This document shows, in pieces, positions 26,381 through 55,797 of a stretch of DNA of 64,000 nucleotides (position 1 is its first letter; each line of letters begins with the position of its first letter). Origin of the DNA: a virus; IMG/VR virus record IMGVR_UViG_3300020048_002392, positions 1 to 64,000 of that record; one strand, given 5' to 3'. The notes beneath the pieces are model-generated. The model did not search any database. It worked only from the letters and a program-made list of their open reading frames with translations, and was not told the DNA's origin. The translations under genes were made by a program, and so were the position numbers.

Positions 26381-26387
26381 GGGTCGA

Positions 26388-33296: not shown

Positions 33297-33478
33297 TACG
33301 CGACGAAAGAACCAAAGCTTTAATAAACCCCGATGCGGACGCACTATATAAATATAAAGCGGAACGCGAAAAGAACCGCAAAATGATTAAGATAGAGAAT
33401 GATCTAGAAAATCTTAATCGAAAAGTAGAAGCTTTATCTAAACTTTTAGAAAATAGAACAGAGAAGAATAATGGCTAA
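33293..33478 (+). CDS. small conserved hypothetical protein
   Basis: RDERTKALIN motif and a coiled-coil-like C-terminus; ATGA-coupled to the upstream gene. Confidence 0.65.
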   Translation: MIRDERTKALINPDADALYKYKAEREKNRKMIKIENDLENLNRKVEALSKLLENRTEKNNG

Positions 33479-34814
33479 GTCAATAACTGAAGTAACTGCT
33501 AGTAACACCTTCCAAGTATGGCTTGATAAAACAAACGAAATTGTTGAAATTATAAACAACGATGTGCTTACAGCATCTCCGTCTGCAAATGGTGACATTA
33601 CTATAGGTAATGCTACGTTAATTGGTAACCTAACTGCCAACAATATGATAGCAAGCGCGTTATTAAGAGCAGACACCATAAGCCCGCTAATAGGATCTAC
33701 ATCTATATTAAGCACAGCCTTATTCAATATAACTACGAGCCAAACCGTTCTTGAAAGACTTACTAGTGCAGTTGGTCCTAGAATGGCATTCACCGATGGT
33801 GCTGTTGAATGGCAAGCTGGTTTTGAAAACGCGTTAAACAAAAACTTCGTTATTACTTCCGGTGGAACTTCAGTATTTAGAATCACCCCTACTGGTGACG
33901 TAGAGATAAATGGCACTGTTACCGCCGGTTCTGTTCAAGCTGCATCTGCAACCGCAAACACGTTAACTACTGCTAGAACTATTGCTGCTACAGGAGACAT
34001 AACTTGGTCTGTATCATTTAATGGAGGAAGCAACGTTACTGCGGCCGCTACGATACCAGTAAACTCTATAAGCAATACAAAGATAAGACAATCTGCCGGC
34101 CTTTCACTAGTAGGTCGCGCAGGAAGCACTCTAGGAGATGTAGCCGACATAACATCGTCCGCCGATCATCAAGTGCTTAGAAGATCTGGCTCTACGATTG
34201 GATTTGGTGCAGTTGCATTAAACCAAGCTGCCGCAGTCACTGGAGTGTTGCCGGCAGCAAACGGCGGAACTGGTGCATCTGCGCTAACTGCAAATAAGTT
34301 GATGGTTGGAAACGGCGCCGCTGACGTATTAACACCAACCGCACTTCATTGGGATGGAGTAAATACACGACTTGGTATTAATACAGTTACTCCGACTGAA
34401 AGACTTGAAGTAAACGGAAACGTTAAAGCAACGTTCTTTATTGGTACTGCTACGTCTGCTCAGTACGCCGACCTTGCAGAAAAGTTCTTACCTGAAACTG
34501 ATTATGAAATTGGTACAGTCGTAATGATCGGTGGAAACGCTGAGATTACCGACACCAAAAATATCGCTGACGTTGCTATCGGTGTTATTTCCGGAGAGCC
34601 TGCGTTCATGATGAACGAAACTCTTGCTGGCGGACAATACGTTGCGCTAAAAGGTCGAGTTCCAGTTAAAGCAGTTGACACCGTAAGAAAAGGTGATATA
34701 CTAATACCAGGGCCAAATGGTGTCGCACAGCGCGGAATTAGAACGTCCTATAACAAATTTGGTATTGCTATAAGTGATTGGTCGGATGGATTCGTGGAGG
34801 CCGTTATATTATGA
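33471..34814 (+). CDS. tail fibre/spike protein with C-terminal autoproteolytic chaperone-like domain
   Basis: N-terminal TFQVWLDKTNE attachment-like motif, RLGINTVTPTERLEVNG, and C-terminal QYADLAE...VALKGRVPVK. Confidence 0.7.
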   Translation: MAKSITEVTASNTFQVWLDKTNEIVEIINNDVLTASPSANGDITIGNATLIGNLTANNMIASALLRADTISPLIGSTSILSTALFNITTSQTVLERLTSAVGPRMAFTDGAVEWQAGFENALNKNFVITSGGTSVFRITPTGDVEINGTVTAGSVQAASATANTLTTARTIAATGDITWSVSFNGGSNVTAAATIPVNSISNTKIRQSAGLSLVGRAGSTLGDVADITSSADHQVLRRSGSTIGFGAVALNQAAAVTGVLPAANGGTGASALTANKLMVGNGAADVLTPTALHWDGVNTRLGINTVTPTERLEVNGNVKATFFIGTATSAQYADLAEKFLPETDYEIGTVVMIGGNAEITDTKNIADVAIGVISGEPAFMMNETLAGGQYVALKGRVPVKAVDTVRKGDILIPGPNGVAQRGIRTSYNKFGIAISDWSDGFVEAVIL

Positions 34815-35287
34815 TATCCAGTGACGAGGTGTTTGCGTTTATTACGCAATCACTTCCATACGAACAAAGAATCGTTTCATATATTGATAAAAATAACTTA
34901 CAGCACCAAGTAAATAAATTCTCAGATATACCGTCACTTAATGAAATAACATTAAAGTTAGAAGGTATGGAAAAATATTCAAAAAGAATATGGGAACATT
35001 GTAAACTATTAGCAATTCAGAAAATGTTTACTGGTCCAGTATCTTGTCACCTATTCCTAGCACAGATAGGCTCTCCTTCATTTGGTAGGCACACCGATCC
35101 AGATGACGTTATAATATGGTGCACAGAAGGAATAAAAAGTTTGTATGTAGAGGATACCAAATACGATCTTAATCCAGGTTCATCTGTTTCTATACCTGCT
35201 AATACTCCACACGAAATTATTAATGAGCATAACTCAGTAATGTTAAGCTTTGGATTTGAACACTATTATATAGATAAGTTGGTATGA
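34811..35287 (+). CDS. JmjC/cupin-4 type Fe(II)/2OG hydroxylase
   Basis: SFGRHTDPDDV (HxD), G.K and IPANTPHEI (distal His); ATGA overlap with the fibre gene. Confidence 0.75.
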   Translation: MISSDEVFAFITQSLPYEQRIVSYIDKNNLQHQVNKFSDIPSLNEITLKLEGMEKYSKRIWEHCKLLAIQKMFTGPVSCHLFLAQIGSPSFGRHTDPDDVIIWCTEGIKSLYVEDTKYDLNPGSSVSIPANTPHEIINEHNSVMLSFGFEHYYIDKLV

Positions 35288-36312
35288 ATTGGACATTTTA
35301 CTTAAAAACAACAGAGACCTGTAATTTAAACTGTCTCCATTGTTTTACAAGCGGCACAAGTGGTGCTAAGATATATTGGAAGCCGGATCTTATAAAGGAT
35401 TGGCTCAAAAGATTTAGAGAAGAAAATCCAAAGGAAACTGATACTGCGCATTGCGAGTTTCATGGAGGAGAACCTTTTCTTGCTCCAGTTTCACAGATGC
35501 GAGAAGTCTGGCAGGAATGCAAAGATCTTTGGCCGAGTATGACTTGGGGTGTAACTACCAATCTAGTCTTCAAACTTACAGATGATCATATAGATTTTAT
35601 TAAGGGCCCACTTGAAAACCGATTAGGTTCTTCTTGGGACCCTAAGATACGTTTTGCAAATAAGAAACAATATAATCTTTGGCATTCAAACATTAAGAGA
35701 CTATTAAATGAAGGTGTAGTAGTTAGACTATTCATCAGTGTAACTAAAGATACTATCGATTACGAACCTATTGTATTACTGCGTTGGCTAAGAAGATTGG
35801 GTGTTCAAGAAGTTTCATTTGAAAGACTTACGAATAATGGAAGCGCTAGAAAATCGCCAGGAATATTTCCAACCAACGTTGAAATAGATGAATGGTTTCT
35901 AAAGATGCACTTGCAGTCAGAAGCTGTAGGAGCAAGAGGTTGGTTTGAAAATGACTTCTTAGAAAATGTATATGCTAAGTTTGAAAAACAGTTGAACTCG
36001 TGTGGTACTTTCTGCAGGGACTGTGAGGAGAAGCTATTCACGTTAAACCCAGACGGATCTATATCTGGGTGTCCAAATGCAGCGCCTGAATTCCAGTTCG
36101 GTCATTTAGAGGATGAAATAAAAGTTCTTCTTAAAAGTCCAAAGCGTATTATAAATATGATTGAAGAAAGAAGCAGAAACCCAAAGTGCTATACCTGCCC
36201 AGTCTTCCGTTTTTGTAACGGCGACTGTCACCAATTAGAATGGCAAGGTGACGTATGTGGTGCACCGAAGAGTTTGATGAGTCATATCGCAAAAGAAAAA
36301 GGTTTACTTTAA
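35284..36312 (+). CDS. radical SAM/SPASM domain protein
   Basis: CNLNCLHC and FHGGEP, with SPASM cysteines CRDC...GC...CYTCPVFRFCNGDC...C. Confidence 0.93.
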   Translation: MNWTFYLKTTETCNLNCLHCFTSGTSGAKIYWKPDLIKDWLKRFREENPKETDTAHCEFHGGEPFLAPVSQMREVWQECKDLWPSMTWGVTTNLVFKLTDDHIDFIKGPLENRLGSSWDPKIRFANKKQYNLWHSNIKRLLNEGVVVRLFISVTKDTIDYEPIVLLRWLRRLGVQEVSFERLTNNGSARKSPGIFPTNVEIDEWFLKMHLQSEAVGARGWFENDFLENVYAKFEKQLNSCGTFCRDCEEKLFTLNPDGSISGCPNAAPEFQFGHLEDEIKVLLKSPKRIINMIEERSRNPKCYTCPVFRFCNGDCHQLEWQGDVCGAPKSLMSHIAKEKGLL

Positions 36313-36903
36313 ATGGCAACTTTAACTAACCCGATTAATAAACAGAATATAGTAGATAGATTTGCAGACTATGTAGTCGCAACTGGAAACTCTGGCATAT
36401 CTTGGGGTACAAATAACCGCCCGCCATATTTCAATACAACATACCTAGGTTTCGAACCATTTGGTGGAACTACGGGTGGAAAAGCAATAGAATCATCTGC
36501 AGCAAATATAACAGATGCTAATGTAACAGCCGCCACGATATATAACGTACTAGTCGCTGAAACACAAAGATATAGTAACATTAGAAACTTGAGAGCTTTA
36601 GTTAATGTAACTGGCGCAGGCGGTAATACACCTATAGGCCCGGAAGTTCCTGGGGCACCAGGTATAATTTACGATGTCACTGCTAAAGCATATCTATCAA
36701 CAGCATATAGACAAGCAACCATATCTCCAGCAAATGCTGGAGTTGCAGCAGCTCAAGTTGCTAGAAGTGCTAACCTAGAATCTTTTTATAATAATTTACG
36801 AACAACATATTCTACATATGGAAATACTACCGCTACTATACAAGTGAACGTATGTCATTCTTCATGTCATACTTCTTGTCATGCAAATAGAGGTAGAAGG
36901 TAA
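36313..36903 (+). CDS. virion-like protein with C-terminal CHxxCHxxCH-RGRR tail; putative radical SAM substrate
   Basis: Thr/Ala/Asn/Gly-rich body with no Cys or His, followed by VCHSSCHTSCHANRGRR and the stop codon. Confidence 0.6.
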   Translation: MATLTNPINKQNIVDRFADYVVATGNSGISWGTNNRPPYFNTTYLGFEPFGGTTGGKAIESSAANITDANVTAATIYNVLVAETQRYSNIRNLRALVNVTGAGGNTPIGPEVPGAPGIIYDVTAKAYLSTAYRQATISPANAGVAAAQVARSANLESFYNNLRTTYSTYGNTTATIQVNVCHSSCHTSCHANRGRR

Positions 36904-36917
36904 AAGGAAGGAATATT

Positions 36918-37640
36918 ATGCAAGTTATTGAAACGATTGCACCTATAAGTCTAGATCACTTAAAGGTCTACTTTACAGATAAGGAAACTCTATTTAAAAT
37001 AAACTACGCAGATTCTGAATTAAAAGAAGATAAGTTATTCGTATATCTATCGAATCTAGAACTACCGTGTGACCTAGTGTTTTCTTCAGATGAAGAAGTT
37101 ATGGCTGCTGTAAAATCATATCTTTATTTTTCTCATATTCTATCAGTGCCTATTCTTGAAAATCTAACTATTTCCTTATTACTACAATTTAAAGGAATAG
37201 GTGAAGATAAAATATGGCCAGAAGAATTCTTAAATGAAAATTCAGTTATACTAAATAGTTGGGTACAAAAGCTAGAATCTTTAACTCTTTACAATCTTTA
37301 TACTGTTGATCTAGAAGATTTGAAAGATTATGTTAAAACATTTAAAGAAGATAATACAAATTCTACTGAAGGTATAAACTTTGTTAGTTTGTTAAAAAAT
37401 CCAAACTTTTATATGTTCTATAATAGTATAGATGAAAACAACTTAACATATTATTCTACATATTTTGAAGAGTATATGTTTAAAGGATCTAATCTTTATA
37501 GCTACTGGGCAAACGAAAATAACCCAATGTTTATGTTAACTTGGTCGATAGTTTCTGGTGAATTAAATTATAAAGAATATTTCGAGAGCATTAAGAATGA
37601 TGAGCAGGAGTTAGCTTTAAGTGTTTCACCTAGCTCATAA
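36918..37640 (+). CDS. hypothetical protein in radical SAM cluster
   Basis: 240-aa acidic ORF with SD AGGAAGGA. Confidence 0.7.
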   Translation: MQVIETIAPISLDHLKVYFTDKETLFKINYADSELKEDKLFVYLSNLELPCDLVFSSDEEVMAAVKSYLYFSHILSVPILENLTISLLLQFKGIGEDKIWPEEFLNENSVILNSWVQKLESLTLYNLYTVDLEDLKDYVKTFKEDNTNSTEGINFVSLLKNPNFYMFYNSIDENNLTYYSTYFEEYMFKGSNLYSYWANENNPMFMLTWSIVSGELNYKEYFESIKNDEQELALSVSPSS

Positions 37641-38763
37641 GTTATATCTATGCCATGAAAATACTATTGACACGAATAAAGATAGAGTAGTAATATCTCA
37701 AGAAAACGGATATTACATGCACGAAGTAATTCAGAAGATATCAAATGGTACTCTTTTTAAGTGCGCAAATAGTATCGACGATTTAATAAAGGGCAAGGAT
37801 ATATCGGAATTCTTTTCCGAACTTATTGACTTTTGTGTACAAAGGGATCGCCCTCTTTGCATATACACGGATAAGAAAACATTTGCATTCATTCAACTTG
37901 CTTGGTTCAATTTGATATTCAAAGAACCATCCTTTGAAACGTGCGAGATACTATATAACTCAAATGTATTTAAATACGATATGTTTTATAAAGGAAGGTT
38001 TTCTTCAAACCACGGTTCAAAGATAAAAATAGATTTGGCTTTGAATACTGGAACTCTTAAAAGTATATATGATAAAGTTCCTCACGCAGCAAATGCAAAG
38101 AAAAGAAGTTTCTTTGCAAGATATTCTAAATACGTAAGTGTTGAATACTTATTAGCATCGTATGTACACAACGGTTCTATGAAAAAAGAATTAAAAGAGA
38201 ATATAAGAAGACTCTTGAGAAAAGACATAGAAAAATACATATACGAATTAAAAGAAATATTCGTAATACATTTTACAACTCGGACCTTTAAAGAAAGACT
38301 AGGTTTAGAAAAAGAATACGATATTCAAAACATGCAGGACATAGTGAATGACAAATCTAAATTTGCAGAACTCTTTATGTCCAATAGACTATTCTTTGTA
38401 TCAGGGATGGATCTACCATCGAGTAAGATGAATAAAAATTTTAGATTTGAACAAATAACTGATGAAGACGTAAATAACTTTAAAGAATTCACTGTTTTAT
38501 CCGGCACAACTTGGGGAGAAGAAGCAGTCTATCAGTTTATCAAATCAGATATAAACAAATTGGACTTTATTGATATTATAAATGACGAGTTTACTGATAA
38601 GAGATTGGAAGATCTATTAAATGCAGAGTCTACGTATGAACATGCTGCCGGTTCATTCTTTTCAATAGATTTGGAAACTGTAAATAACTATCTTGTAGAA
38701 TACATATTAGACTCAAGATTTAAAAACGATAGAGAAAATCTTAGAAGCATGACTCTATGCTAA
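37621..38763 (+). CDS. hypothetical protein in radical SAM cluster
   Basis: 380-aa ORF with a GTG start after AGGAG; overlaps both neighbours. Confidence 0.7.
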   Translation: MFHLAHKLYLCHENTIDTNKDRVVISQENGYYMHEVIQKISNGTLFKCANSIDDLIKGKDISEFFSELIDFCVQRDRPLCIYTDKKTFAFIQLAWFNLIFKEPSFETCEILYNSNVFKYDMFYKGRFSSNHGSKIKIDLALNTGTLKSIYDKVPHAANAKKRSFFARYSKYVSVEYLLASYVHNGSMKKELKENIRRLLRKDIEKYIYELKEIFVIHFTTRTFKERLGLEKEYDIQNMQDIVNDKSKFAELFMSNRLFFVSGMDLPSSKMNKNFRFEQITDEDVNNFKEFTVLSGTTWGEEAVYQFIKSDINKLDFIDIINDEFTDKRLEDLLNAESTYEHAAGSFFSIDLETVNNYLVEYILDSRFKNDRENLRSMTLC

Positions 38764-39770
38764 ATGATGATATCTATAAGGCAATATCTAATAAAATAAT
38801 TCTTCATAGTGAGATAGTAGTATGCTTATTCGAGCATTGCAATATGGAATGCATATTCTGTCCGCAGAAACACGATAATATAGTAGGAGCTTCAAGAGAA
38901 GAGATACTTTCTAAAGTAGATTCTATAGTAAACTATATCAACAATAATAAACGCTCAACTCATTTTAAAATACATGCAATGGGTGGAGAACTGTTTCAAG
39001 ATCAATGGATTGAAAAAGGTTTCTTAGAAATATATTCAGATTTCATAAAAGAAATACAAAGCCGAGTAGATAAAGAAATAGAATTTAACTTTATTACGAA
39101 TTTGGTATTTGATAACACTGATTTAGTAATGCAGTTTATAGAGTCGAATAATCTTTTAATCTCTGTATCATATGACGCTAAGGGTAGATTTAGTTTATCG
39201 CAATTTGAAATATTTAAAAGAAACATAGAAATATTTAAAGACAAGATACGAATGATATCTTGCGTTGGCACAAAACAGAATATGAGAGCAATCATAAACG
39301 GTAACGAATACTTTAGTTACTTATATGACATGTTTCCGTGTGATTGGGATTCATTCCTTCCGTCCGTGCCGGTTTCTGAAAAGCTTATGCCAGCTGAAAC
39401 TGAACTATTAGAGTTCTATAAATTTTTAGTTGACAACTACCCAAGATGTATAAACATATCATACTTTACCGAAGACTCTGTTTCTAATAAAATGTCTTGC
39501 ACCAGAGGAAACAGTCACACGGTCATGCCGGATGGGTCTACTCCAAAAGGTTGTTCCGGATCAGTACTACTTACAAGCCCAACATCAAACGATCTTTTTT
39601 CTGGCGCTATAGTAGAGAAATTCATAAATACATATGATTGCTTCCAATGTGAATTCTATAAGAAGTGTCCTTTTACTTGCTTTATTAAAAATGATTACTC
39701 TAAGATAAAGCGTGATCTAGGTGAATGCGTTTTTAAGGAGACGTTTAAATATGTTAAGGAAAAAAATTAA
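38757..39770 (+). CDS. radical SAM protein with SPASM-like C-terminus
   Basis: CNMECIFC, MGGE and C-terminal C...GC...CFQCEFYKKCPFTC...C. Confidence 0.9.
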   Translation: MLNDDIYKAISNKIILHSEIVVCLFEHCNMECIFCPQKHDNIVGASREEILSKVDSIVNYINNNKRSTHFKIHAMGGELFQDQWIEKGFLEIYSDFIKEIQSRVDKEIEFNFITNLVFDNTDLVMQFIESNNLLISVSYDAKGRFSLSQFEIFKRNIEIFKDKIRMISCVGTKQNMRAIINGNEYFSYLYDMFPCDWDSFLPSVPVSEKLMPAETELLEFYKFLVDNYPRCINISYFTEDSVSNKMSCTRGNSHTVMPDGSTPKGCSGSVLLTSPTSNDLFSGAIVEKFINTYDCFQCEFYKKCPFTCFIKNDYSKIKRDLGECVFKETFKYVKEKN

Positions 39771-41442
39771 GTTTGCATTTATAAATCCACCACACGCGGA
39801 TTGGTCATTGGCAAACAACATGACGTATCTAATATGTCAGAGTTATTATAATCATTTTGGTAAATATAAAGACGACGTTGAATGGATTCCAGCGCCGTAT
39901 AAGTTTGACTTATATAAAGACATAGAAGAGATAGTAGATCTTCTTACTCCAGCGGATGTTATTATGTTTAGTTCTTATGCATGGAACTATACTATATGTG
40001 ACGACGTGGCAAAAATAATCAAAGAAAAATACCCAGAAAAGATATTACTATTAGGTGGTCCTCACATTGGAACAAACGAGCCCGATCTTTTAAGCAAAAG
40101 AACATTCTATGATTATGTATGTCAACCTACTAAACCAGGTGAGACATTTATTCAGGACGTAATAGACTGCATTATTGAAGACAGGTTATCTTCTGAAAAT
40201 ATATCTTGGGAACTAAATAGCAAACGTGGAATAAGTGCAGCATTTGATGTAGATTATTCAGTATACGAGGAACACCTAGATTACCTTACTGAAATGGTAA
40301 GTTATGCAAAAAAATATAAATTAGAACCATTCGTTGTAATAGAAACAACACGAGGATGCCCATATAAGTGTGTGTATTGTGAATGGGGTGGTGGAATTGG
40401 TACAAAAATAATAAAGAAAGATATAGAATTAGTTAAAAGAGATATCTTAGCGCTAAAGAAAGCTGGTTTCAGAGACGCGTATTTAACAGATGCAAACTTC
40501 GGCGCATTCGAAGAAAGAGATGTATCTATCTTCAAGTTTGCATGGGATCACAAGTTTAATCTAACAGATATTAGTACAATGAAATCTAAAGATCTAAATA
40601 GAAGAAAGAGATTAATCGATTCTATATCAAATATAGTTGGAAAAGGGCCAGAAAAACATTCAGTTTCTGAAGGTGGAACTGATATGTGGGGAAATACAGA
40701 ATACATATCTGTAATACCAGCAGTAAGCATTCAAAGTGTTAGCGAAGTTGCCATGAAAATTGCCGATCGTGTAGACCTAAGCTTAAAGGATAAGTTAGAA
40801 CTTTCAAAATATGTAAATCATATGTGTAGTAAAGAAGATTATCCAATACCAGCAGTAGAATTAATTCTTGGTATGCCAGGTTCAACGCTTGATGATTTTT
40901 ATACTGAAGCGAATATCCTATGGGACTTTAAAGCATGGTCAAGCTTTAGACACGACTATATGTTTCTACCAGATTCCAGATTAAACTCGAAAGAATATAA
41001 AGAAAAATACCAAATAGAAACGGTAGAAGTTTATTCTGATATCGTGGATGAAGATGGCACTGATAACTGGCACAACTTATATAAAAACAAAAGGACATAC
41101 TTTAAAACTATAAGATCGTGCTTTTCTTTTACGTCGGAAGATATGTATGAAATGTGGTTTATGAACAATGCTACAAATTACTTATTAAAAAACATTTATC
41201 CAATGTTGGAAAATTATGCGTCACCTAAAGAATTTGCCAAAGAAGCTTACAACGTAATAAATACTATAGAAGGATTTGACGATATCTATCAAGAAATCGT
41301 AGACATATTGAATCCTAATACACCTCCAAAATCCATAAGAAAATTAGGTGACAATTTTAGAGCAAAGACTATAGAAGATTTTCTTGTTAAAAACAATATA
41401 ATCCTAAAATCTGAAATAACGAAAAGGTTGTTAATAAAATAA
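39751..41442 (+). CDS. cobalamin-binding radical SAM enzyme (class B methyltransferase-like)
   Basis: N-terminal B12-binding-like region (FSSYAWN, LLGGPH), ETTRGCPYKCVYC, DANFG and ELILGMPG. The start at 39751 follows AAGGAG. Confidence 0.88.
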   Translation: MLRKKIKFAFINPPHADWSLANNMTYLICQSYYNHFGKYKDDVEWIPAPYKFDLYKDIEEIVDLLTPADVIMFSSYAWNYTICDDVAKIIKEKYPEKILLLGGPHIGTNEPDLLSKRTFYDYVCQPTKPGETFIQDVIDCIIEDRLSSENISWELNSKRGISAAFDVDYSVYEEHLDYLTEMVSYAKKYKLEPFVVIETTRGCPYKCVYCEWGGGIGTKIIKKDIELVKRDILALKKAGFRDAYLTDANFGAFEERDVSIFKFAWDHKFNLTDISTMKSKDLNRRKRLIDSISNIVGKGPEKHSVSEGGTDMWGNTEYISVIPAVSIQSVSEVAMKIADRVDLSLKDKLELSKYVNHMCSKEDYPIPAVELILGMPGSTLDDFYTEANILWDFKAWSSFRHDYMFLPDSRLNSKEYKEKYQIETVEVYSDIVDEDGTDNWHNLYKNKRTYFKTIRSCFSFTSEDMYEMWFMNNATNYLLKNIYPMLENYASPKEFAKEAYNVINTIEGFDDIYQEIVDILNPNTPPKSIRKLGDNFRAKTIEDFLVKNNIILKSEITKRLLIK

Positions 41443-41963
41443 TGATAAAAGATATTTACACAAAGGGATTTGTAAAACTAAGTGAACCGTCCGCTCTAGA
41501 CCTTATAAGGATTGACGAGTTCAGACTACTTAACGTAGAAGAAAGAGCAAGAGATAACGGTGTAAAAGACGTTAGTCCAGAATTATCAAAGAGAATGGAT
41601 GTATTTGCGCAATACTTAAAAACAAAATACATACTACCAGAATGGCCCGATGCAAAATATAATAAGTTTTTAGTTTGGGACGGAGTTGATGCTGACAACC
41701 AAGGTTGGCATACTGATATGTTTGAAAACTACGATGTCTTCTTTCTTTACTATTTCGATACTCAATACGAAGAAACAGGCGGATCTATAAATTTCAAGTG
41801 GGGATCTTTAGAAGATAAGGAAGAAACGGCTCAGTTCTACCCTCAAGCAGGAGACCTATTCATGGTAAACAATTGCAGAGGATTTTGGCATAGGGCAGAG
41901 TCAACAAAGATTACACGAAGACTAGCAAGCTTTGATTTTAGTGTAGGTTTAGAAGATGACTAA
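41442..41963 (+). CDS. 2OG-Fe(II) oxygenase
   Basis: WHTD, GGSI, P.AGD and FWHRA...RR. Confidence 0.8.
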   Translation: MIKDIYTKGFVKLSEPSALDLIRIDEFRLLNVEERARDNGVKDVSPELSKRMDVFAQYLKTKYILPEWPDAKYNKFLVWDGVDADNQGWHTDMFENYDVFFLYYFDTQYEETGGSINFKWGSLEDKEETAQFYPQAGDLFMVNNCRGFWHRAESTKITRRLASFDFSVGLEDD

Positions 41964-42255
41964 TGAAATAGAAGAGTTGCTTGCCAAGAAACAAATCATC
42001 GGAGATGAAAGGGATCTATGCGCAGAGTTATATAACGTATGGATTACCAAATTGCATGATTTTCAAAAAGACCCGGTAAAGTATAAAATGTATATGGATA
42101 TGATACAAATGATGGAACCGTATGGCGCGCAATTAAAGGAAGAGATACGCGAAATAAACAGAAGACTCTGCGAAATAGAAGGTGTCGATTCAATCGGTGA
42201 AACGGATTATGTTAGAGAATGCAACAACAAGTACGGCAAGGCCAAACCAAATTGA
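41956..42255 (+). CDS. hypothetical protein
   Basis: 99-aa helical-looking ORF overlapping both neighbours. Confidence 0.6.
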   Translation: MTNEIEELLAKKQIIGDERDLCAELYNVWITKLHDFQKDPVKYKMYMDMIQMMEPYGAQLKEEIREINRRLCEIEGVDSIGETDYVRECNNKYGKAKPN

Positions 42256-42752
42256 TAATTGAAGACTTTTTCACTAAAGGATTTGTTCACTCTAAATTTG
42301 ACATAGACGTCGTAGATATGTTTAAGAATGATCACTTTATTGACTGTAATTCTAAAGAAGCAGATGATCAGACAATCGGTGAAGAGGCACAACTAAAACT
42401 AAATGAAATACATTTGTACATTGGAAAGAGTATCGTAAAGAAAGTATTTAGTAACTTTACTTATCATAGAAATGGAATGTGGTGTGGGGTTGATACTGGA
42501 TCTGCAGAATGGCATAATGATTTTATTGATGGCGACCCTTTTACAAGCAACCTTTTAATATATCTAGAAGATGGTGAACCTTATGGTAATTCTATAGAAG
42601 TAAAGAACCAATTTGAAGAGTATAAAGTTATGCCAAAACCAAATGAATATGTTTGGCTAAATCAAAACAAAAAATTTATGCATAGAGCGACTCATAAAAG
42701 CGGCCCAAGAAGATTACTATCATTTGAATTTTATATACCAGCATTGGTTTAA
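42219..42752 (+). CDS. 2OG-Fe(II) oxygenase, paralogue of 41442
   Basis: WHND and FMHRA...RR. The true start may be the TTG at 42252, which overlaps the upstream TGA. Confidence 0.75.
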   Translation: MQQQVRQGQTKLIIEDFFTKGFVHSKFDIDVVDMFKNDHFIDCNSKEADDQTIGEEAQLKLNEIHLYIGKSIVKKVFSNFTYHRNGMWCGVDTGSAEWHNDFIDGDPFTSNLLIYLEDGEPYGNSIEVKNQFEEYKVMPKPNEYVWLNQNKKFMHRATHKSGPRRLLSFEFYIPALV

Positions 42753-42754
42753 TC

Positions 42755-43792
42755 ATGGATCTAATTATCAAACCCACTGAAGTTTGTAACTTCAAATGTA
42801 CATTCTGCTCTTCTACAAAGATATCAGAGGAACACACCTCGCAGTTAGATCTGGAGAAAGTCTTTAGATTCCTTAAGAGATATCCTGAGACAAAGACAAT
42901 CATTGTAAACGGCGGTGATCCTCTTATGATGAGTCCTGCGTACTATTGGCGAATGATTAAACACTTAGAAGAAAACAATTACCCTGCGACTATCTCTCTT
43001 ACTACAAACCTTTGGCCTTTCTATAAGAACGTCTCTAAGTGGAAGACTTTATTTCTACACCCGAGGATTGGAATCTCAACATCATTCCAATATGGAAACG
43101 GTAGACTGAAAGGAGACTACTCAGTATTTACAGAGGAAGACTTCTGGGCAGCATCTGATACAATGTTAAAAGAGATCGGCTATAGGCCAACGTTCATAGC
43201 AGTCATTACAGAAGAGAATGAAGACACTGCGTTGAAAACTGTTGAACTTGCAAAAAAGATGGACGTAGTATGTAAAGTAAACTATGCTATGGCTTCAGGT
43301 GACCAAGGAGTACCTTATCGTTTATCAAAGATATATGAGAAGTACATTGAGATCTGGAAGGCAGGTCTTGCTCCGTGGGAACACAACACACAGCAGATGA
43401 TGAAGAGACTCCGCGGTGAACAAACTATCTGCCCTCAAACTAGAACCTGCGACTCGAGTATTCGAACGATACAGCCAGAAGGAGACTATTATTCCTGCGG
43501 TGCGTTCGGCGACGATCGTGATAAAGCTATTGATTTTGAATACGAAATGAATGGCGGATTTTCAACTCCTCTTGCTGATGACTTTAACTTACTATCGTTA
43601 AAGCAAGTTTGTTTCTCGTGTCCGATGTTTGAAATATGTAACGGCTGTAGAAAGACTGTTAAGGATCTGAAAGAACATAGAATGGTAGAAGATCATTGTA
43701 AGCATATGAAGCAACTTGCGCCAGATATTATAGAATCAAACGGATTGAATTTAGAGGTAACACCATATGTCTACGAAGGGCTACACGGTTAG
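42755..43792 (+). CDS. radical SAM/SPASM domain protein
   Basis: IIKPTEVCNFKCTFC, GGDP, and CPQTRTC...SC...CFSCPMFEICNGC...HC. Confidence 0.93.
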   Translation: MDLIIKPTEVCNFKCTFCSSTKISEEHTSQLDLEKVFRFLKRYPETKTIIVNGGDPLMMSPAYYWRMIKHLEENNYPATISLTTNLWPFYKNVSKWKTLFLHPRIGISTSFQYGNGRLKGDYSVFTEEDFWAASDTMLKEIGYRPTFIAVITEENEDTALKTVELAKKMDVVCKVNYAMASGDQGVPYRLSKIYEKYIEIWKAGLAPWEHNTQQMMKRLRGEQTICPQTRTCDSSIRTIQPEGDYYSCGAFGDDRDKAIDFEYEMNGGFSTPLADDFNLLSLKQVCFSCPMFEICNGCRKTVKDLKEHRMVEDHCKHMKQLAPDIIESNGLNLEVTPYVYEGLHG

Positions 43793-44714
43793 TATTAACC
43801 CATCTTATTTTTGTAACTTTAGCTGTGATTTTTGTTATCTTACTAAATCTCAATTAGCTGATACAAAAAAGATTTCTTTAGAAAGACTAGATGAACTTCT
43901 TTCACAGGTTCCAAAGATAGAGTATGTTGATCTTTACGGTGGAGAGATCGGCGCGTTAAAGAAATCATACTTCTATGATATGAAAGACGTGATAAGAAAA
44001 CATTATCAGGATGACATAAATATAATTACAAACTATTCAATGATACACGAAGGTTTCTATGATGATGACGTTATACTTGGAGTGTCGTATGATTTTGAAG
44101 CAAGGGAAAAACACGAAATTGTTTTTAAGAATATGATGATTTCACCAGTACCAATTTCAGTTTTAATACTTGCTTCAAAAGAAGTAATTCAAAAAGATGT
44201 AGAAGAAATGATTTCTCTTCTTAATATATGTTCTGCAATAACTTCAGTAGAAATAAAACCTTATTCGATTAATCAAGCAAACGCTGATAGAGTTACACAT
44301 AGAGATTTTGAAGTGTTCGTTCAGAAATGGTTAGATGCAAAGACTGAGAAACTATTTCAATTTATAAATGAAGATAAGATAAAAGAATCTCTATCAAAAG
44401 AATACAACGCGTTCTCTGATAATCATATATACATAACGCCGAACGGCAAGTTTGCTGTTTTAGAGTTTGATAAGGATGATAAGGAATATTTTTTAGAACT
44501 TAATAGTTGGGGTGAATATATAGAATGGACGAAAAAGGAAAAAGAAAACATAAGTCCTTTCTGTAAGGAGTGTATATATTTTGGAAACTGTTTAACAGAA
44601 CATTATAGATACGTGGATAATTTAGAAAACAGTTGCAATGGATATAAAGGGTTATTGGATTTTTATAATGAAAGAATGGAAAATAAGACAAGAGATATAT
44701 CACAGACTACATAA
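43767..44714 (+). CDS. radical SAM protein with partial SPASM domain
   Basis: CNFSCDFC, LYGGEI and C-terminal CKECIYFGNC...SC. Confidence 0.88.
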   Translation: MSTKGYTVSINPSYFCNFSCDFCYLTKSQLADTKKISLERLDELLSQVPKIEYVDLYGGEIGALKKSYFYDMKDVIRKHYQDDINIITNYSMIHEGFYDDDVILGVSYDFEAREKHEIVFKNMMISPVPISVLILASKEVIQKDVEEMISLLNICSAITSVEIKPYSINQANADRVTHRDFEVFVQKWLDAKTEKLFQFINEDKIKESLSKEYNAFSDNHIYITPNGKFAVLEFDKDDKEYFLELNSWGEYIEWTKKEKENISPFCKECIYFGNCLTEHYRYVDNLENSCNGYKGLLDFYNERMENKTRDISQTT

Positions 44715-45072
44715 AGAGTATGATGACGATTTGAATAAAGTCAACATAGTTATATCTGAAGACGTGATTAAAGATGCAATAAGACATTTTAATGAATATG
44801 TAGAGGATTGGATATATCCTTCGAAAAGCTATTTCGTTGCTATATGTTATGCGTATTGGTTATCAGAAGAGTTTAATGAAAACTTTTATGATCTTTTAAA
44901 CGACCCAGATCTATTAGCAGGAAATGACCCTTATTACACTACATACAACAAAGATAAGAATACATATGATTCAATATTAAGTGGTATAAAACTTCCGATT
45001 GAATATAAAGGTATGGTGAACGAAGTAAGAAAATATTATGACGAGGAATTTAATGACCCAGCAAAATTCTGA
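44668..45072 (+). CDS. hypothetical protein in radical SAM cluster
   Basis: MKEWKIRQEIYHRL...WIYPSKSYFVAICYA; overlaps both neighbours. Confidence 0.65.
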   Translation: MKEWKIRQEIYHRLHKEYDDDLNKVNIVISEDVIKDAIRHFNEYVEDWIYPSKSYFVAICYAYWLSEEFNENFYDLLNDPDLLAGNDPYYTTYNKDKNTYDSILSGIKLPIEYKGMVNEVRKYYDEEFNDPAKF

Positions 45073-45562
45073 TTACCTTAATCTATGGCCTACCACAGTA
45101 TATAAGTCTACATTTGAAGTAAATGAAGATATGATAATATCTGCAATGCAAAAGGAAATTCATCAATCTATATATGATCTATCTTTAAAATATTTTGATG
45201 ATTACTTAAAAGAAGTTATAGGTATTTCTTTGTATGATTATAAAGGATATAGACTAGATTCTTGGATAAATAGATATGAAAATACGGATATGGAATATCA
45301 CACTCATAATGGCTCTCAGCTAAGTGCAGTTTTCTATCTAGTAGTTGAAGGTGACGGTGGAGAAATAACTTTTTACGACCCTAGGTTTTTTGCAGCGAGG
45401 GGATACGATATGAACTTTAGAAAGCTGCATAGTAACTTTGTATTAAAACCTAGTAGTGGTGACTTTGTGATATTTCCAAGCTTCTTATATCATTCGGTAA
45501 AAATATCAAAAGGGTTTAAGATATCAATACCGGTGGATTTGTTTTTGTTTAATGATAACTAA
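45053..45562 (+). CDS. 2OG-Fe(II) oxygenase (TIGR02466-like)
   Basis: LWPT, SWIN, YHTH, SAVFY, ITFYDPR and IFPSFLYHSV. Confidence 0.82.
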   Translation: MTQQNSDYLNLWPTTVYKSTFEVNEDMIISAMQKEIHQSIYDLSLKYFDDYLKEVIGISLYDYKGYRLDSWINRYENTDMEYHTHNGSQLSAVFYLVVEGDGGEITFYDPRFFAARGYDMNFRKLHSNFVLKPSSGDFVIFPSFLYHSVKISKGFKISIPVDLFLFNDN

Positions 45563-45563: not shown

Positions 45564-45571
45564 TATAAATA
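45564..45571 (+). promoter_or_regulatory. late promoter
   Basis: Intergenic TATAAATA upstream of 45606. Confidence 0.75.
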
Positions 45572-53343: not shown

Positions 53344-53358
53344 TAAGGTTTATTATAA

Positions 53359-54525: not shown

Positions 54526-54562
54526 TAAATAATAAGAACCACCTATAAGATAAAGGCGTCGT

Positions 54563-55771: not shown

Positions 55772-55797
55772 GATGTCACATAGGAGACTTTTTAGAA

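What the first reader, a model, noticed from the sequence alone, without database searches (positions are those of the whole stretch)
34811..45562. Phage-encoded multi-radical-SAM / oxygenase tailoring cluster embedded in the tail-fibre region
Seen: 14 tightly packed same-strand ORFs. Four are CxxxCxxC enzymes with SPASM-type cysteines (35284, 38757, 42755, 43767), one is a B12-binding radical SAM (39751), one is a JmjC-type hydroxylase (34811), three are 2OG-Fe(II) oxygenases (41442, 42219, 45053), four are unknown, and one is a Cys/His-tailed protein (36313). The first gene overlaps the stop of fibre gene 33471 (ATGA), I see no terminator between them, and structural genes resume behind a late promoter at 45564. 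Established: SPASM radical SAM enzymes mostly modify peptides or proteins (ranthipeptide/sactipeptide maturases, anaerobic sulfatase maturases), B12 radical SAMs often methylate unactivated carbons, and 2OG enzymes hydroxylate. Inference: this is a late-expressed, RiPP-like pathway that chemically matures a virion component or a peptide cut from it. It is not part of the T4 paradigm.
Basis: partly seen in the sequence, partly recalled or inferred. Interest (0 to 1): 0.92.

Follow-up and report, generated by a model that had tools for sequence, protein, structure and literature searches.

The report
Phage cassette maturing a Cys-His-tailed protein
A widespread, phage-only gene cassette of radical SAM enzymes and oxygenases always travels with a small protein that ends in an invariant Cys-His-x-Ser triple repeat, so these phages most likely modify that tail chemically, late in infection, next to their tail-fibre genes.

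Summary
Window 34811-45562 carries 14 tightly packed + strand ORFs: a cupin, four CX3CX2C radical SAM (rSAM) enzymes (three with full SPASM cysteine sets, one partial), a B12-rSAM, three 2OG oxygenases, four unknowns and the Cys/His-tailed protein 36313.

The 36313 family has 584 clusters at 50% identity, with no name and no known fold. It ends in (C-H-x-S/N)x3-R-x-R-R in 139 of the 150 best representatives.

In 60 viral contigs with enough flank, a core travels with it in fixed order: cupin, rSAM-A, CH-tail, unknown 36918, rSAM-B, rSAM-C, rSAM-D, unknown 44638 and 2OG oxygenase (53-60 of 60). The same trio and tail occur in 7 of 7 inspected jumbo-phage isolates (Ralstonia, Burkholderia, Agrobacterium, Sinorhizobium, Pseudomonas). 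A T4 late-promoter box lies within 300 nt upstream of the CH-tail gene in 64 of 79 loci; other 300-nt bins hold it in 0-7 loci out to 6.6 kb downstream.

Best reading (about 0.6): late, protein-level, RiPP-like maturation of that tail. The chemistry, the substrate and virion residence are inferred, not shown. Papers only list these genes as unexplained. Earlier scan notes concern this same stretch only.

The parts
33471..34814 (+). Context: tail-fibre-like protein (447 aa). Its C-terminal third is conserved just upstream of the cassette.
   Evidence: PHROG tail-fibre hits at 161-269 and 316-418. Peptidase_G2 IMC domain is only weak (E 0.055). The C-terminal part is found upstream in 45 of 60 loci.
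34811..35287 (+). Core: cupin/JmjC-like non-haem iron oxygenase (158 aa).
   Evidence: Cupin_2 at 39.2 bits and JmjC_2 at 22.3 bits, borderline. H94, D96 and H134 are invariant, 55/55. Present in 58 of 60 loci. The ATGA overlap with 33471 is read.
35284..36312 (+). Core: rSAM-A, a radical SAM/SPASM enzyme directly upstream of the CH-tail gene.
   Evidence: SPASM domain TIGR04085 at 40.2 bits (cut-off 27). Best weak hits are anSME, PapB and DynA. C13/C17/C20 and 8 C-terminal Cys are invariant, 71/71. Directly upstream of the CH-tail gene in 77 of 78 loci. About 50% identical in jumbo phages.
36150..36157 (+). T4-type late-promoter box TATAAATA inside rSAM-A, 163 nt before the CH-tail ATG.
   Evidence: A box lies within 300 nt upstream of the CH-tail start in 64 of 79 loci; every other 300-nt bin from -3000 to +6600 has 0-7 loci.
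36313..36903 (+). Core: CH-tail protein (196 aa). A conserved alpha/beta domain with no known fold, plus the tail; presumed substrate.
   Evidence: 631 homologues, all unnamed. 584 clusters at 50% identity. AF2 pLDDT 80.5. No PDB fold match: no Foldseek hit at E <= 1e-3 and best VIA Z 3.5. All 3 Cys and all 3 His of the protein lie in the tail.
36853..36900 (+). C-terminal tail CHSSCHTSCHANRGRR, i.e. (C-H-x-S/N)x3-R-x-R-R, followed by the stop.
   Evidence: The exact motif ends 139 of 150 representatives and 117 of 120 close homologues. The fourth position of each unit is S/N in at least 115 of 120. It is the only CHxxCH in the six frames of the window.
36918..37640 (+). Core: acidic unknown protein (240 aa, pI 4.3), always right after the CH-tail gene.
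   Evidence: Present in 60 of 60 loci, and directly downstream in 75 of 75. phrog_20767, function unknown. AF2 pLDDT 91.9. No PDB match by profile, Foldseek or VIA; best Z 4.6 over 52 aa.
37621..38763 (+). Accessory: unknown protein (380 aa).
   Evidence: Present in 50 of 60 loci. No Pfam, PHROG or NCBIfam hit. The ESM Atlas gave nothing usable.
38757..39770 (+). Core: rSAM-B, radical SAM/SPASM.
   Evidence: C28/C32/C35 and 7 C-terminal Cys are invariant, 66/66. Present in 60 of 60 loci. phrog_1802.
39721..41442 (+). Accessory: B12-binding radical SAM enzyme, a class B methyltransferase-like protein. The start is the GTG at 39721 or the ATG at 39751.
   Evidence: B12-binding at 29.1 bits plus Radical_SAM. 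KedN5-family C-methyltransferase at 1.1e-23, 83 bits against a cut-off of 700. C203/207/210 invariant, 33/33. Present in 31 of 60 loci.
41442..41963 (+). Accessory: 2OG-Fe(II) oxygenase.
   Evidence: 2OG-FeII_Oxy_3 at 23.1 bits, below the cut-off. H90 30/30, D92 29/30, H150 30/30. Present in 32 of 60 loci.
41956..42255 (+). Accessory: small unknown protein (99 aa).
   Evidence: Present in 11 of 60 loci. Where present it follows the 41442-type oxygenase directly.
42219..42752 (+). Accessory: 2OG-Fe(II) oxygenase.
   Evidence: 2OG-FeII_Oxy_3 at 21.8 bits, below the cut-off. Present in 10 of 60 loci.
42755..43792 (+). Core: rSAM-C, radical SAM/SPASM.
   Evidence: Radical_SAM at 43.6 bits. DynA 3e-13, anSME 7e-11; SPASM at 24.6 bits, just under the cut-off of 27. 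C11/15/18 and 8 C-terminal Cys invariant, 59/59. Present in 58 of 60 loci.
43767..44714 (+). Core: rSAM-D, a radical SAM enzyme with a reduced (four-Cys) auxiliary-cluster region.
   Evidence: C16/20/23 and only C266/269/275/290 invariant, 61/61. Present in 60 of 60 loci.
44668..45072 (+). Core: small acidic unknown protein (134 aa from the ATG at 44668; the longest ORF starts at 44638).
   Evidence: Present in 56 of 60 loci. phrog_20737. The stretch upstream of MKEWKIRQ is broken by a stop in 14 loci. No PDB profile hit.
45038..45562 (+). Core: 2OG-Fe(II) oxygenase of the Oxy_5 type.
   Evidence: PF13759 at 51.5 bits. Present in 53 of 60 loci.
45564..45571 (+). Late-promoter box before the next gene, 45606. 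It marks the end of the cassette.
   Evidence: A collagen-repeat fibre with a Peptidase_S74 domain follows at 48214.

Best explanation
This is a conserved, phage-specific maturation cassette for one protein.

The 196-aa product of 36313 has a folded N-domain of about 180 aa with no known fold. It ends in an invariant 16-residue tail, (Cys-His-x-Ser/Asn)x3-Arg-x-Arg-Arg. I read this protein as the substrate.

The flanking cupin oxygenase and SPASM radical SAM enzyme would act on the tail. So would three further radical SAM enzymes, the core 2OG oxygenase and, in this phage, a B12-dependent radical SAM methylase and two extra 2OG oxygenases. By analogy, the likely products are thioether and/or His-to-C-beta carbon cross-links, hydroxylated His or Arg, and C-methyl groups.

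The CH-tail gene is transcribed from its own T4-type late promoter. It sits inside the tail-fibre / host-recognition module. Some family members carry a glycine-rich domain of the tail-fibre type. So the matured protein is probably a virion-associated (fibre or baseplate) accessory whose rigid, cationic tail acts at the host envelope.

Shown here:
- the genes and their catalytic residues;
- the invariant tail;
- the synteny across unrelated phage lineages;
- the promoter box.

Inferred:
- that 36313 is the substrate;
- the type of chemistry;
- virion residence and role.
For: 1. The tail is invariant while the N-domain diverges.
- The exact CHxxCHxxCHxxRxRR end is found in 139 of the 150 best 50%-identity representatives and in 117 of 120 close homologues.
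- The Ser/Asn positions, which were not part of the search pattern, are S/N in 119, 115 and 117 of 120.
- The same tail occurs in Pseudomonas phage DT01, Ralstonia RSL2, RSF1 and RsoM3USA, Burkholderia SURPRISE13, Agrobacterium Atu_ph07 and Sinorhizobium Phosso. N-domain identity there is about 26-35% or undetectable.

2. Synteny.
- rSAM-A lies directly upstream in 77 of 78 loci.
- The cupin lies before it in 73 of 78.
- Unknown 36918 lies directly downstream in 75 of 75.
- The core genes are present in 53-60 of the 60 loci with enough flank, with no minus-strand hit for any cupin, rSAM or oxygenase gene.

3. The enzymes look competent and are of the peptide/protein-modifying kind.
- CX3CX2C and the SPASM Cys are invariant, and so are the HxD...H triads.
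- The best NCBIfam neighbours are anSME, PapB, DynA, DarE, HxsB/HxsC and QhpD.
- The nearest solved structures are anSME and CteB.

4. All 3 Cys and all 3 His of the window protein lie in the tail. No other CHxxCH occurs in any frame of the 64-kb window. The N-domain is Cys-free in 182 of 236 family members.

5. Late timing. TATAAATA lies within 300 nt upstream of the CH-tail start in 64 of 79 loci, at varied offsets. Every other 300-nt bin from -3000 to +6600 has 0-7 loci.

6. Virion link.
- The cassette sits between fibre genes here.
- It sits next to annotated virion, baseplate or structural genes in RSL2, Atu_ph07, SURPRISE13, RsoM3USA and RSF1.
- Two family members carry a Gly_rich_2 domain that matches phrog_863, 'tail fiber assembly'.

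7. The family is phage-only as far as searched. The scan of 185,579 species genomes gave 1 locus: a 113-kb contig that carries the whole cassette.

8. Precedents for rSAM maturation of whole proteins:
- the HXS system (section 9 of PMC13128918 read);
- CrpC/CrpA (abstract of PMC13692751).
Against: - There is no biochemical or proteomic datum: no modification, no binding and no virion detection was seen.
- The tail could be a metal- or cluster-binding site rather than a substrate. Cys and His alternate at i, i+4 spacing.
- The four rSAMs lack an N-terminal RRE domain: CX3CX2C starts at residues 11-28. No RRE-like protein was recognised among the unknowns, so how the substrate would be recognised is unexplained.
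- All equivalog scores are far below their cut-offs, so no specific chemistry can be transferred.
- The loci were collected through the CH-tail protein and were not dereplicated. The co-occurrence counts therefore run in one direction and include near-duplicates. The reverse check covers only 7 of the 12 distinct isolate phages found with rSAM-A.
- The promoter argument rests on a consensus octamer. The two genes upstream (cupin, rSAM-A) lie before that box.
- The glycine-rich fusions are 2 proteins among hundreds, and 'tail fiber assembly' is a PHROG label, not a test.
Confidence: 0.6

Rival explanations
1. Released natural product or cofactor. The N-domain of 36313 would be an unusually large leader or scaffold. 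The modified C-terminal peptide of about 16 residues would be cut off, by a host or unrecognised protease, and released at lysis or used in the cell. It could act as an antibacterial or signalling peptide, or as a redox or metal-binding cofactor, in the manner of PQQ, mycofactocin or polytheonamide precursors.
For: - The modified region sits at the extreme C-terminus, as in MftA and PqqA (recalled, not tested).
- The enzyme mix of multiple rSAM, a B12-rSAM and 2OG oxygenases recalls proteusin-type pathways (recalled).
- The nearest NCBIfam hits are RiPP maturases: PapB, DynA, DarE.
- Four proteins of unknown function (36918, 37621, 41956, 44638) could hide a protease.
Against: - No protease, transporter or immunity gene was recognised in the cassette.
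- The N-domain is a conserved, confidently folded 180-aa domain. It tolerates inserted domains in its loops, which is unlike a disposable leader.
- The core peptide is invariant across very distant phages, whereas bioactive RiPP cores usually vary.
- The cassette consistently lies within structural gene modules.
Confidence: 0.12
2. The tail is a ligand set rather than a substrate. The three Cys and three His would bind a metal ion or an Fe-S-type cluster. 36313 would then be a scaffold, carrier or electron donor for the radical SAM enzymes, or a metal-capped tip like the His-bound iron sites of phage spikes and fibres. The enzymes would act on something else, for example the neighbouring fibre protein.
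For: - Cys and His are the classic metal ligands and are strictly invariant.
- The i, i+4, i+8 spacing would place them on one face of a helix, and AF2 gives a short, low-confidence helix at 187-190.
- A conserved fibre C-terminal domain lies upstream of the cassette in 45 of 60 loci.
- T4-like environmental genomes rich in rSAM genes also carry Fe-S assembly genes (passage of PMC5332604).
- Iron and zinc sites in phage fibres and spikes are known (recalled).
Against: - The equally conserved Ser/Asn at the fourth position of each unit and the R-x-R-R end are not explained by metal ligation.
- An electron carrier would not need six to nine tailoring enzymes of four classes in fixed order.
- The fibre upstream is not conserved in 15 of 60 loci, and only its C-terminal third is conserved in most of the others.
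- No other Cys/His-rich candidate substrate exists in the window.
Confidence: 0.13
3. Non-structural effector used inside or around the infected cell. The matured, cationic His-x-Ser-repeat protein would act like the bacterial HXS effector. It would engage DNA or the envelope to exclude competing phages, or to counter a host defence, without being part of the virion.
For: - The tail consists of three His-Xaa-Ser triads plus basic residues.
- In the bacterial HXS system two rSAM enzymes mature a protein with five basic HxS repeats that binds DNA and blocks phage DNA entry (section 9 of PMC13128918).
- There are weak HxsB and HxsC hits: 1.1e-8 for rSAM-A, 4.5e-7 for rSAM-C.
Against: - The HxsB/HxsC scores (34 and 29 bits) are far under the cut-offs (370 and 268) and no better than those for other SPASM families.
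- No peptidoglycan-binding domain was seen on 36313, and I saw no signal-peptide-like N-terminus by eye in its sequence (no predictor was run).
- A late promoter is odd for an exclusion or anti-defence function. Such genes are usually early (recalled).
- The gene lies among structural genes.
Confidence: 0.1
4. Nucleotide, DNA or small-molecule tailoring. The rSAM and 2OG enzymes would modify DNA bases, nucleotides or a sugar or lipid, as in phage thymidine hypermodification or queuosine pathways. 36313 would be unrelated to them.
For: - Phages use rSAM enzymes in DNA hypermodification (PMC8989533, search listing only).
- 2OG-Fe(II) oxygenases in pelagimyophages have been read as nucleic-acid modifiers (passage of PMC7029224).
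- There are weak viperin-like hits to the rSAM cores.
Against: - Full SPASM domains with 7-8 invariant Cys are typical of peptide and protein maturases.
- No kinase, glycosylase, PLP enzyme or nucleotide-binding partner is in the cassette.
- The near-absolute linkage to the CH-tail gene is left unexplained.
Confidence: 0.03

Closest known systems
[quoted passage not shown]
   Same: - Several radical SAM enzymes mature a whole protein, not a short peptide.
- The functional region is a tandem array of His-x-Ser triads rich in basic residues.
- A small covalent change was mapped to one S-H-R-S-S unit.
- The window tail is three H-x-S/N triads followed by R-x-R-R.
- rSAM-A and rSAM-C give weak HxsB and HxsC hits.
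   Different: - This cassette is encoded by phages, not bacteria.
- Each triad is preceded by an invariant Cys.
- There are four rSAMs plus cupin, 2OG and B12 enzymes, not two rSAMs.
- The carrier has no peptidoglycan-binding domain and no match to HxsA or HxsD models.
- The HxsB/HxsC scores are far below the family cut-offs, so this is not a member.
Protein-level thioether maturation by SPASM radical SAM enzymes: QhpD on the gamma subunit of quinohaemoprotein amine dehydrogenase (recalled), and CrpC on the Cys-rich protein CrpA (PMC13692751, abstract read)
   Same: - A SPASM rSAM with three [4Fe-4S] clusters acts on Cys of a co-encoded protein substrate.
- The enzyme gene is adjacent to the gene of the Cys-bearing protein.
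- There are weak hits to the QhpD family: 3.2e-6 and 3.6e-4.
   Different: - Here there are only three Cys, in a strict repeat with His and Ser at the extreme C-terminus.
- Several paralogous rSAMs and oxygenases take part.
- The rSAMs have no RRE domain.
- The system is viral and expressed late.
- No cross-link has been shown.
Classical rSAM RiPP pathways: ranthipeptides (PapB), sactipeptides, darobactin/dynobactin (DarE, DynA), triceptide His cyclophanes (HaaB, HtkB; PMC11499958, abstract only), and proteusins with B12-rSAM methylases and 2OG hydroxylases (recalled)
   Same: - The enzyme classes and their nearest sequence neighbours match.
- The target is a repeating short motif.
- The precursor gene lies next to the first maturase.
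   Different: - The precursor is a conserved, folded 180-aa domain with an invariant 'core', the reverse of the usual conserved-leader, variable-core pattern.
- No protease, exporter or immunity gene is present.
- The cassette is embedded in virion structural modules of phages.
Anaerobic sulfatase-maturating enzyme (anSME; TIGR03942, PDB 4K36-4K39)
   Same: - It is the best NCBIfam hit of rSAM-A (4.3e-13) and among the nearest solved structures.
- It acts on a Cys or Ser of a folded protein.
- The last tail unit, C-H-x-x-R, loosely recalls the C/S-x-P/A-x-R sulfatase motif (the motif is recalled).
   Different: - The score is 49 bits against a cut-off of 349.
- The third position of the motif is G/S/N here rather than P/A.
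- There is no sulfatase domain in 36313.
'Radical SAM gene cassettes' noted in the host-recognition cluster of pelagimyophages (PMC7029224) and the cupin / rSAM / 2OG genes listed in RSL2-like jumbo phages (PMC11898562, PMC8066314, PMC5468394); passages read
   Same: - These are the same kind of genes in the same genomic place.
- For SURPRISE13 the same genes were confirmed: cupin gp70, rSAM gp71 and CH-tail gp72.
- RSL2 and RSF1 were confirmed from their GenBank records.
   Different: - Those papers only list the genes as accessory or unknown.
- None of the passages I read mentions the Cys-His-tailed protein, the conserved order or a function.

Membership tests
Radical SAM / SPASM peptide-protein maturases | CX3CX2C motif binding the SAM cluster | tested here: met
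   Invariant in 35284 (71/71), 38757 (66/66), 42755 (59/59) and 43767 (61/61).
Radical SAM / SPASM peptide-protein maturases | C-terminal SPASM region with 7-8 Cys for two auxiliary clusters | tested here: met
   Invariant Cys: 8 in 35284, 7 in 38757, 8 in 42755. TIGR04085 scores 40.2 bits (cut-off 27) for 35284 but 24.6 bits for 42755. 43767 has only 4 Cys, so the feature is not met for that one.
Radical SAM / SPASM peptide-protein maturases | N-terminal RiPP recognition element (RRE), present in many but not all members | tested here: not met
   CX3CX2C begins at residues 11-28, leaving no room for an N-terminal domain. No PqqD/RRE Pfam hit on any cassette protein.
Radical SAM / SPASM peptide-protein maturases | Covalent modification of a co-encoded peptide or protein | not testable with these tools
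   Needs co-expression and mass spectrometry. Only genetic linkage is shown here.
His-Xaa-Ser (HXS) system | HxsB and HxsC equivalog scores above the cut-offs | tested here: not met
   HxsB 34.2 bits against 370 (35284). HxsC 29.0 bits against 267.9 (42755) and 16.4 bits (38757).
His-Xaa-Ser (HXS) system | Target protein with tandem His-Xaa-Ser repeats | tested here: met
   Three H-x-S/N triads. S/N at the third place in 119, 115 and 117 of 120 representatives. Each triad is preceded by Cys, unlike HxsA as described in PMC13128918.
His-Xaa-Ser (HXS) system | Effector with a peptidoglycan-binding domain, plus the HxsD partner | tested here: not met
   No Pfam or NCBIfam hit on 36313 or on the unknown ORFs.
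Anaerobic sulfatase maturase (TIGR03942) | Equivalog score above the cut-off | tested here: not met
   49.1 bits (35284) and 41.7 bits (42755) against 349.45.
Class B (B12-dependent) radical SAM methyltransferases | N-terminal B12-binding domain followed by a radical SAM core with CX3CX2C | tested here: met
   B12-binding at 29.1 bits, just under the cut-off of 32.1, at residues 68-135. Radical_SAM at 207-271. C203/207/210 invariant, 33/33. The KedN5-family hit is 83 bits against 700, so this is no member of that subfamily.
2OG-Fe(II) oxygenases / cupin-JmjC | His-x-Asp...His iron triad and a family HMM above its cut-off | tested here: met
   45038: PF13759 at 51.5 bits (cut-off 27). 41442 and 42219 are below the cut-off (23.1 and 21.8 bits), but the triad H90/D92/H150 of 41442 is conserved. 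Cupin 34811: Cupin_2 at 39.2 bits (cut-off 27.2), H94/D96/H134 55/55; JmjC_2 is only borderline, 22.3 bits against 22.
Classical RiPP precursor | Short precursor with a disposable leader, a variable core and a dedicated protease or exporter | tested here: not met
   The precursor has 196 aa and a confidently folded, conserved domain. The core is invariant. No protease or transporter family is in the cassette.
T4-type late gene | TATAAATA box shortly upstream of the gene | tested here: met
   Box at 36150-36157, 163 nt before the ATG. Conserved in 64 of 79 loci, against 0-7 in the other bins out to +6600. Transcription itself was not tested.
Virion structural protein | Detected in purified particles | not testable with these tools
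   Virion proteomes exist for Atu_ph07 (PMC6102473) and phiRP31 (PMC5468394), but the lists are in supplements I could not see.

The most novel reading that the evidence does not exclude
The matured CH-tail protein is a virion-borne 'chemical warhead': a fibre- or baseplate-attached protein whose C-terminal (Cys-His-x-Ser)3-RxRR tail is turned by the phage's own radical SAM and oxygenase enzymes into a rigid, cross-linked, cationic (perhaps metal-binding) structure. It would engage the host envelope or guide DNA entry. This would be the phage-side counterpart of the bacterial HXS effector, and the first RiPP-type chemistry built into a virus particle. The module would be shared horizontally among T4-like, phiKZ-like and Rak2-like phages.
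Probability: 0.25. Interest if true: 0.92.

Novelty: new variant of a known kind. Interest (0 to 1): 0.8.

Why it matters
Radical SAM/SPASM maturation is known for bacterial peptides and for a few bacterial and archaeal proteins. Here the same chemistry appears as a fixed, multi-enzyme module carried by phages themselves. It is abundant in aquatic metagenomes (584 clusters at 50% identity) and present in cultured jumbo phages of plant and human pathogens. It is always tied to one unnamed protein with an invariant 16-residue tail.

If the tail is modified and ends up on the virion, it would add a new layer to how phages build host-recognition or entry machinery: enzymatic post-translational cross-linking. 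It would also explain the 'radical SAM cassettes' noted but left unexplained in pelagimyophage and jumbo-phage genomes.

It would supply a compact new substrate/enzyme set of four rSAMs with distinct roles for enzymology. The cassette exists in culturable phages (RSL2, RSF1, Atu_ph07, DT01, SURPRISE13), so the question can be tested directly with standard genetics and mass spectrometry.

Tried and rejected
- Near-identical DNA in GenBank phages: none (megablast). The window's own record may be left out of that collection.
- tblastn with the B12-rSAM: one weak hit only.
- Fold of the CH-tail domain. Foldseek against the PDB gave no match at E <= 1e-3. BFVD returned only family members. VIA wide gave a best Z of 3.5. 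No fold could be assigned, which does not prove that the fold is new.
- Unknown 36918. PDB profile search: none. ESM Atlas: nothing usable. AF2 model pLDDT 91.9, but no Foldseek match at E <= 1e-3 and VIA best Z 4.6 over 52 residues.
- Unknown 44638: the PDB profile search gave only a chance-level row.
- Unknown 37621: the Atlas gave nothing above the lead level.
- Profile comparisons of 36918 with 37621 and with 44638: no relation.
- Complex prediction of rSAM-A (with three 4Fe-4S clusters and SAM) with the CH-tail protein: scores 0.29 and 0.00, under the mark of 0.32. The verdict was 'no answer' and the controls were not run. This is no evidence either way.
- Sequencing runs: 20 DNA holders from aquatic, freshwater, lake and soil metagenomes in 13 studies, and no RNA holder listed. 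No statement on expression follows. I did not lay reads.
- PADLOC: only weak viperin-type rSAM-core hits and one 2OG hit. I rejected membership of any known defence system.
- Test of whether tail variants lacking the middle Cys (P0163, P0198) go with loss of an enzyme. The best match was 44% identical, and the nine full tails I checked were all standard.
- Literature. Searches found no paper that describes the Cys-His tail, the conserved cassette order or a function. This holds only for the open-access library searched and for exact-word matching.
- Virion proteome tables of Atu_ph07 and phiRP31 are supplementary files that I could not see. They may already show whether gp170 or its counterpart is in particles.
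- Whole-window enrichment of TATAAATA: rejected, 9 found against 8.6 expected. Only the position-specific conservation counts.

Full report
**What is in the window**

Searches show 14 ORFs on the + strand that fill 34811-45562 with overlaps or gaps of a few bases.

The first ORF (34811) overlaps the stop of the fibre-like gene 33471-34814 in the sequence ATGA. The last ends at 45562. It is followed at once by TATAAATA (45564-71) and the ATG of the next gene at 45606.

The surroundings are the baseplate and fibre module of a T4-like myovirus:
- gp5-, gp6-, gp7- and gp8-type PHROGs lie at 17232-27950;
- a 1778-aa DUF4815 protein lies at 27960;
- a 1316-aa collagen-repeat fibre with a Peptidase_S74 domain lies at 48214.

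The record is an 81.8-kb viral contig rated 39% complete. The closest cultured relatives of its gp6 are Sinorhizobium phiM12-like phages and Caulobacter Cr30, at 37-39% identity.

**The enzymes**

Pfam and NCBIfam give:
- a cupin: Cupin_2 above its cut-off, JmjC_2 borderline;
- four radical SAM proteins;
- a B12-binding radical SAM protein;
- three 2OG-Fe(II) oxygenases, of which only 45038 is above the Pfam cut-off.

I aligned each enzyme with its homologues from related loci and counted conserved residues:
- CX3CX2C is invariant in all five rSAMs.
- 35284, 38757 and 42755 keep 8, 7 and 8 invariant C-terminal Cys, which are full SPASM sets.
- 43767 keeps only 4.
- The cupin and the 41442-type oxygenase keep an HxD...H triad.

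The nearest named families are all peptide or protein maturases: anSME, PapB, DynA, DarE, HxsB/HxsC and QhpD. All score far below their equivalog cut-offs. The nearest solved structures are anSME and CteB. No specific reaction can therefore be transferred.

**The Cys/His-tailed protein**

36313 encodes 196 aa with no Pfam, NCBIfam or PADLOC hit.

Family size:
- 631 homologues at E <= 1e-3 among 996 candidates, all unnamed;
- with a profile, 584 clusters at 50% identity, of which 265 reach 1e-10 and 88 reach 1e-30.

The tail:
- The exact end CHxxCHxxCHxxRxRR occurs in 139 of the 150 best representatives and in 117 of the 120 listed close homologues.
- The exceptions are one-residue insertions, loss of the middle Cys, or truncated records.
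- The columns that my pattern did not fix are also conserved. The fourth residue of each unit is Ser or Asn in 119, 115 and 117 of 120, and the residue before the first Cys is Val or Ile in 108 of 120.
- The tail is therefore (C-H-x-S/N)x3-R-x-R-R, that is, three His-Xaa-Ser triads each preceded by Cys.

The window protein has exactly 3 Cys and 3 His, all in the tail. No other CHxxCH exists in any frame of the window. The N-domain is Cys-free in 182 of 236 members.

AlphaFold2 with 39 sequences gives a confident alpha/beta domain (pLDDT 80.5) and a low-confidence tail. Neither Foldseek nor VIA-align finds a solved fold.

A pattern scan of IMG/VR gave 99 pattern matches. Of these, 93 were confirmed and 80 loci were kept. 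I searched these loci with all 17 window proteins and tallied the hits.

Of the 60 loci with at least 1.6 kb upstream and at least 9.5 kb downstream, the numbers that hold each gene are:

| Gene | Loci (of 60) |
|---|---|
| cupin | 58 |
| rSAM-A | 60 |
| unknown 36918 | 60 |
| rSAM-B | 60 |
| rSAM-C | 58 |
| rSAM-D | 60 |
| unknown 44638 | 56 |
| 45038-type oxygenase | 53 |
| unknown 37621 | 50 |
| 41442-type oxygenase | 32 |
| B12-rSAM | 31 |
| 41956 | 11 |
| 42219-type oxygenase | 10 |

The first eight rows form the core. The last five are accessory.

Order is fixed:
- rSAM-A lies directly upstream of the CH-tail gene in 77 of 78 loci;
- 36918 lies directly downstream in 75 of 75.

The downstream neighbours of the window (45606, 47750) are found in 1 and 0 loci, so the block is a mobile unit.

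Caveats. The loci were chosen through the CH-tail protein, and near-duplicates were not removed.

**Reach beyond T4-like phages**

rSAM-A has homologues of 42-52% identity in 15 GenBank records, which represent 12 distinct phages. They are jumbo phages of Ralstonia, Burkholderia, Agrobacterium, Sinorhizobium and Pseudomonas.

I inspected 7 of the 12: DT01, RSL2, Atu_ph07, Phosso, SURPRISE13, RsoM3USA and RSF1. In all 7 the gene right after rSAM-A ends in the same tail. The N-domains have diverged so far that tblastn found only DT01. In DT01 the later rSAMs and the oxygenases follow in the same order.

These phages belong to unrelated lineages: RSL2 is called phiKZ-related in PMC5468394, and Atu_ph07 Rak2-like in PMC6102473.

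A scan of one genome for each of 185,579 prokaryote species gave a single locus. It is a 113-kb contig of a MAG that carries the complete 14-gene cassette in order, most simply a phage contig.

**Timing**

TATAAATA is not enriched in the window as a whole: 9 found against 8.6 expected. One copy lies at 36150, inside rSAM-A and 163 nt before the CH-tail ATG.

Across loci, the 300 nt before the CH-tail start hold the box in 64 of 79 cases, at several different offsets. Every other 300-nt bin from -3000 to +6600 holds it in 0-7 loci, and most hold none. The 15 loci without it include the contigs of jumbo size.

This is good comparative evidence for a late promoter dedicated to the CH-tail gene and the genes behind it. 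It does not cover the cupin and rSAM-A, which lie before the box.

**Link to the virion**

The evidence is circumstantial:
- the position among fibre genes here;
- the position next to annotated virion, baseplate or structural genes in five isolates;
- a fibre C-terminal domain upstream in 45 of 60 loci;
- two family members (P0124, P0161) that carry a Gly_rich_2 domain matching the PHROG 'tail fiber assembly';
- other members with large loop insertions, which suits a displayed scaffold better than a leader peptide.

No proteomic datum was available to me. The relevant tables are supplements.

**Interpretation**

The simplest account of an invariant tail, physically locked to a set of peptide/protein-type radical SAM enzymes and oxygenases with intact catalytic residues, is that the tail is their substrate.

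The conserved residue types match known targets of the enzyme classes. These matches are recalled knowledge:
- Cys for thioethers;
- His-x-Ser for His cyclophanes or the HXS-type change;
- His and Arg for JmjC/2OG hydroxylation;
- Arg or His for B12-rSAM methylation.

I put 0.6 on protein-level maturation of 36313, and about 0.4 on the further claim that the product is virion-associated.

Rivals:
- a released peptide or cofactor (0.12);
- the tail as a metal or cluster ligand set, with another substrate (0.13);
- a non-structural HXS-like effector (0.10);
- nucleotide or small-molecule chemistry (0.03).

**Comparison with what is known**

The closest functional analogue is the bacterial HXS defence system, in which two rSAMs mature a His-x-Ser-repeat protein (PMC13128918; abstract and section 9 read). 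Membership fails on HMM scores and on the missing peptidoglycan-binding effector.

Protein thioether maturases are further analogues: CrpC (abstract) and QhpD (recalled).

Earlier papers mention 'radical SAM cassettes' in the pelagimyophage host-recognition cluster, T4-like environmental genomes with up to 12 rSAM genes, and cupin, rSAM and 2OG genes in RSL2-like phages. They give no function and, in the passages read, make no mention of the tailed protein.

My seven literature searches found no description of this system. The library is open-access only.

I therefore class it as a new variant of a known kind: rSAM maturation of a ribosomal product, here viral, multi-enzyme, and with a new substrate family.

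**What failed or stayed open**

- The complex prediction gave no verdict.
- No RNA run was listed.
- The two core unknown proteins have confident models but no recognisable fold.
- The variant-tail test could not be run.

Noticed in passing
L071:9001-10369 (also L072, L073, L076; similar in L078): The CH-tail gene is split into two ORFs in different frames. A 308-aa ORF carries the family's N-terminal part plus a long glycine-rich domain. A 140-aa ORF carries the C-terminal part and the tail. This could be a frameshift, an assembly error or a true split of a form with an inserted Gly-rich domain.
   Followed up: partly
window 48214-52164: A 1316-aa protein made almost wholly of collagen-type G-x-x repeats (Pfam Collagen, 471.8 bits) with a C-terminal Peptidase_S74 chaperone domain. 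It is a collagen-like fibre downstream of the cassette.
   Followed up: partly
window 52180-60144: A run of six ORFs of 387-406 aa (plus a 221-aa DUF4376 protein at 57063). The two I scanned (52180, 53359) are RCC1-repeat proteins. It looks like a paralogous array behind the fibre genes.
   Followed up: partly
window 60161-60946: A sulfotransferase-family protein (Sulfotransfer_3, 59 bits) in the same late-strand block. No link to the cassette was tested.
   Followed up: no
window 1266-4906: A C-5 cytosine DNA methylase, an Rv2179c-like 3'-5' exoribonuclease, an NAD-dependent epimerase/dehydratase and a UDP-glucose/GDP-mannose dehydrogenase-like protein lie upstream of the gp45 and gp44/62 clamp genes.
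   Followed up: no
window 44638-44668: The longest ORF for unknown 44638 starts at 44638, but in 14 related loci the equivalent upstream stretch holds a stop. The conserved start is the Met of MKEWKIRQ, at 44668.
   Followed up: yes
L085 (genome contigs, 113-kb contig binned to a Marinovum MAG): This contig carries the complete 14-gene cassette in the window's order, with 32-76% identity. It is probably a phage contig binned with a bacterial MAG.
   Followed up: partly
P0163, P0198 (proteins of the representative library): These are tail variants in which the middle Cys is missing (C-H-S-N-H-x-N-T-C-H...). P0229 lacks the third C-H unit. They are natural experiments for pairing enzymes with tail positions, but their contigs could not be fetched.
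   Followed up: partly
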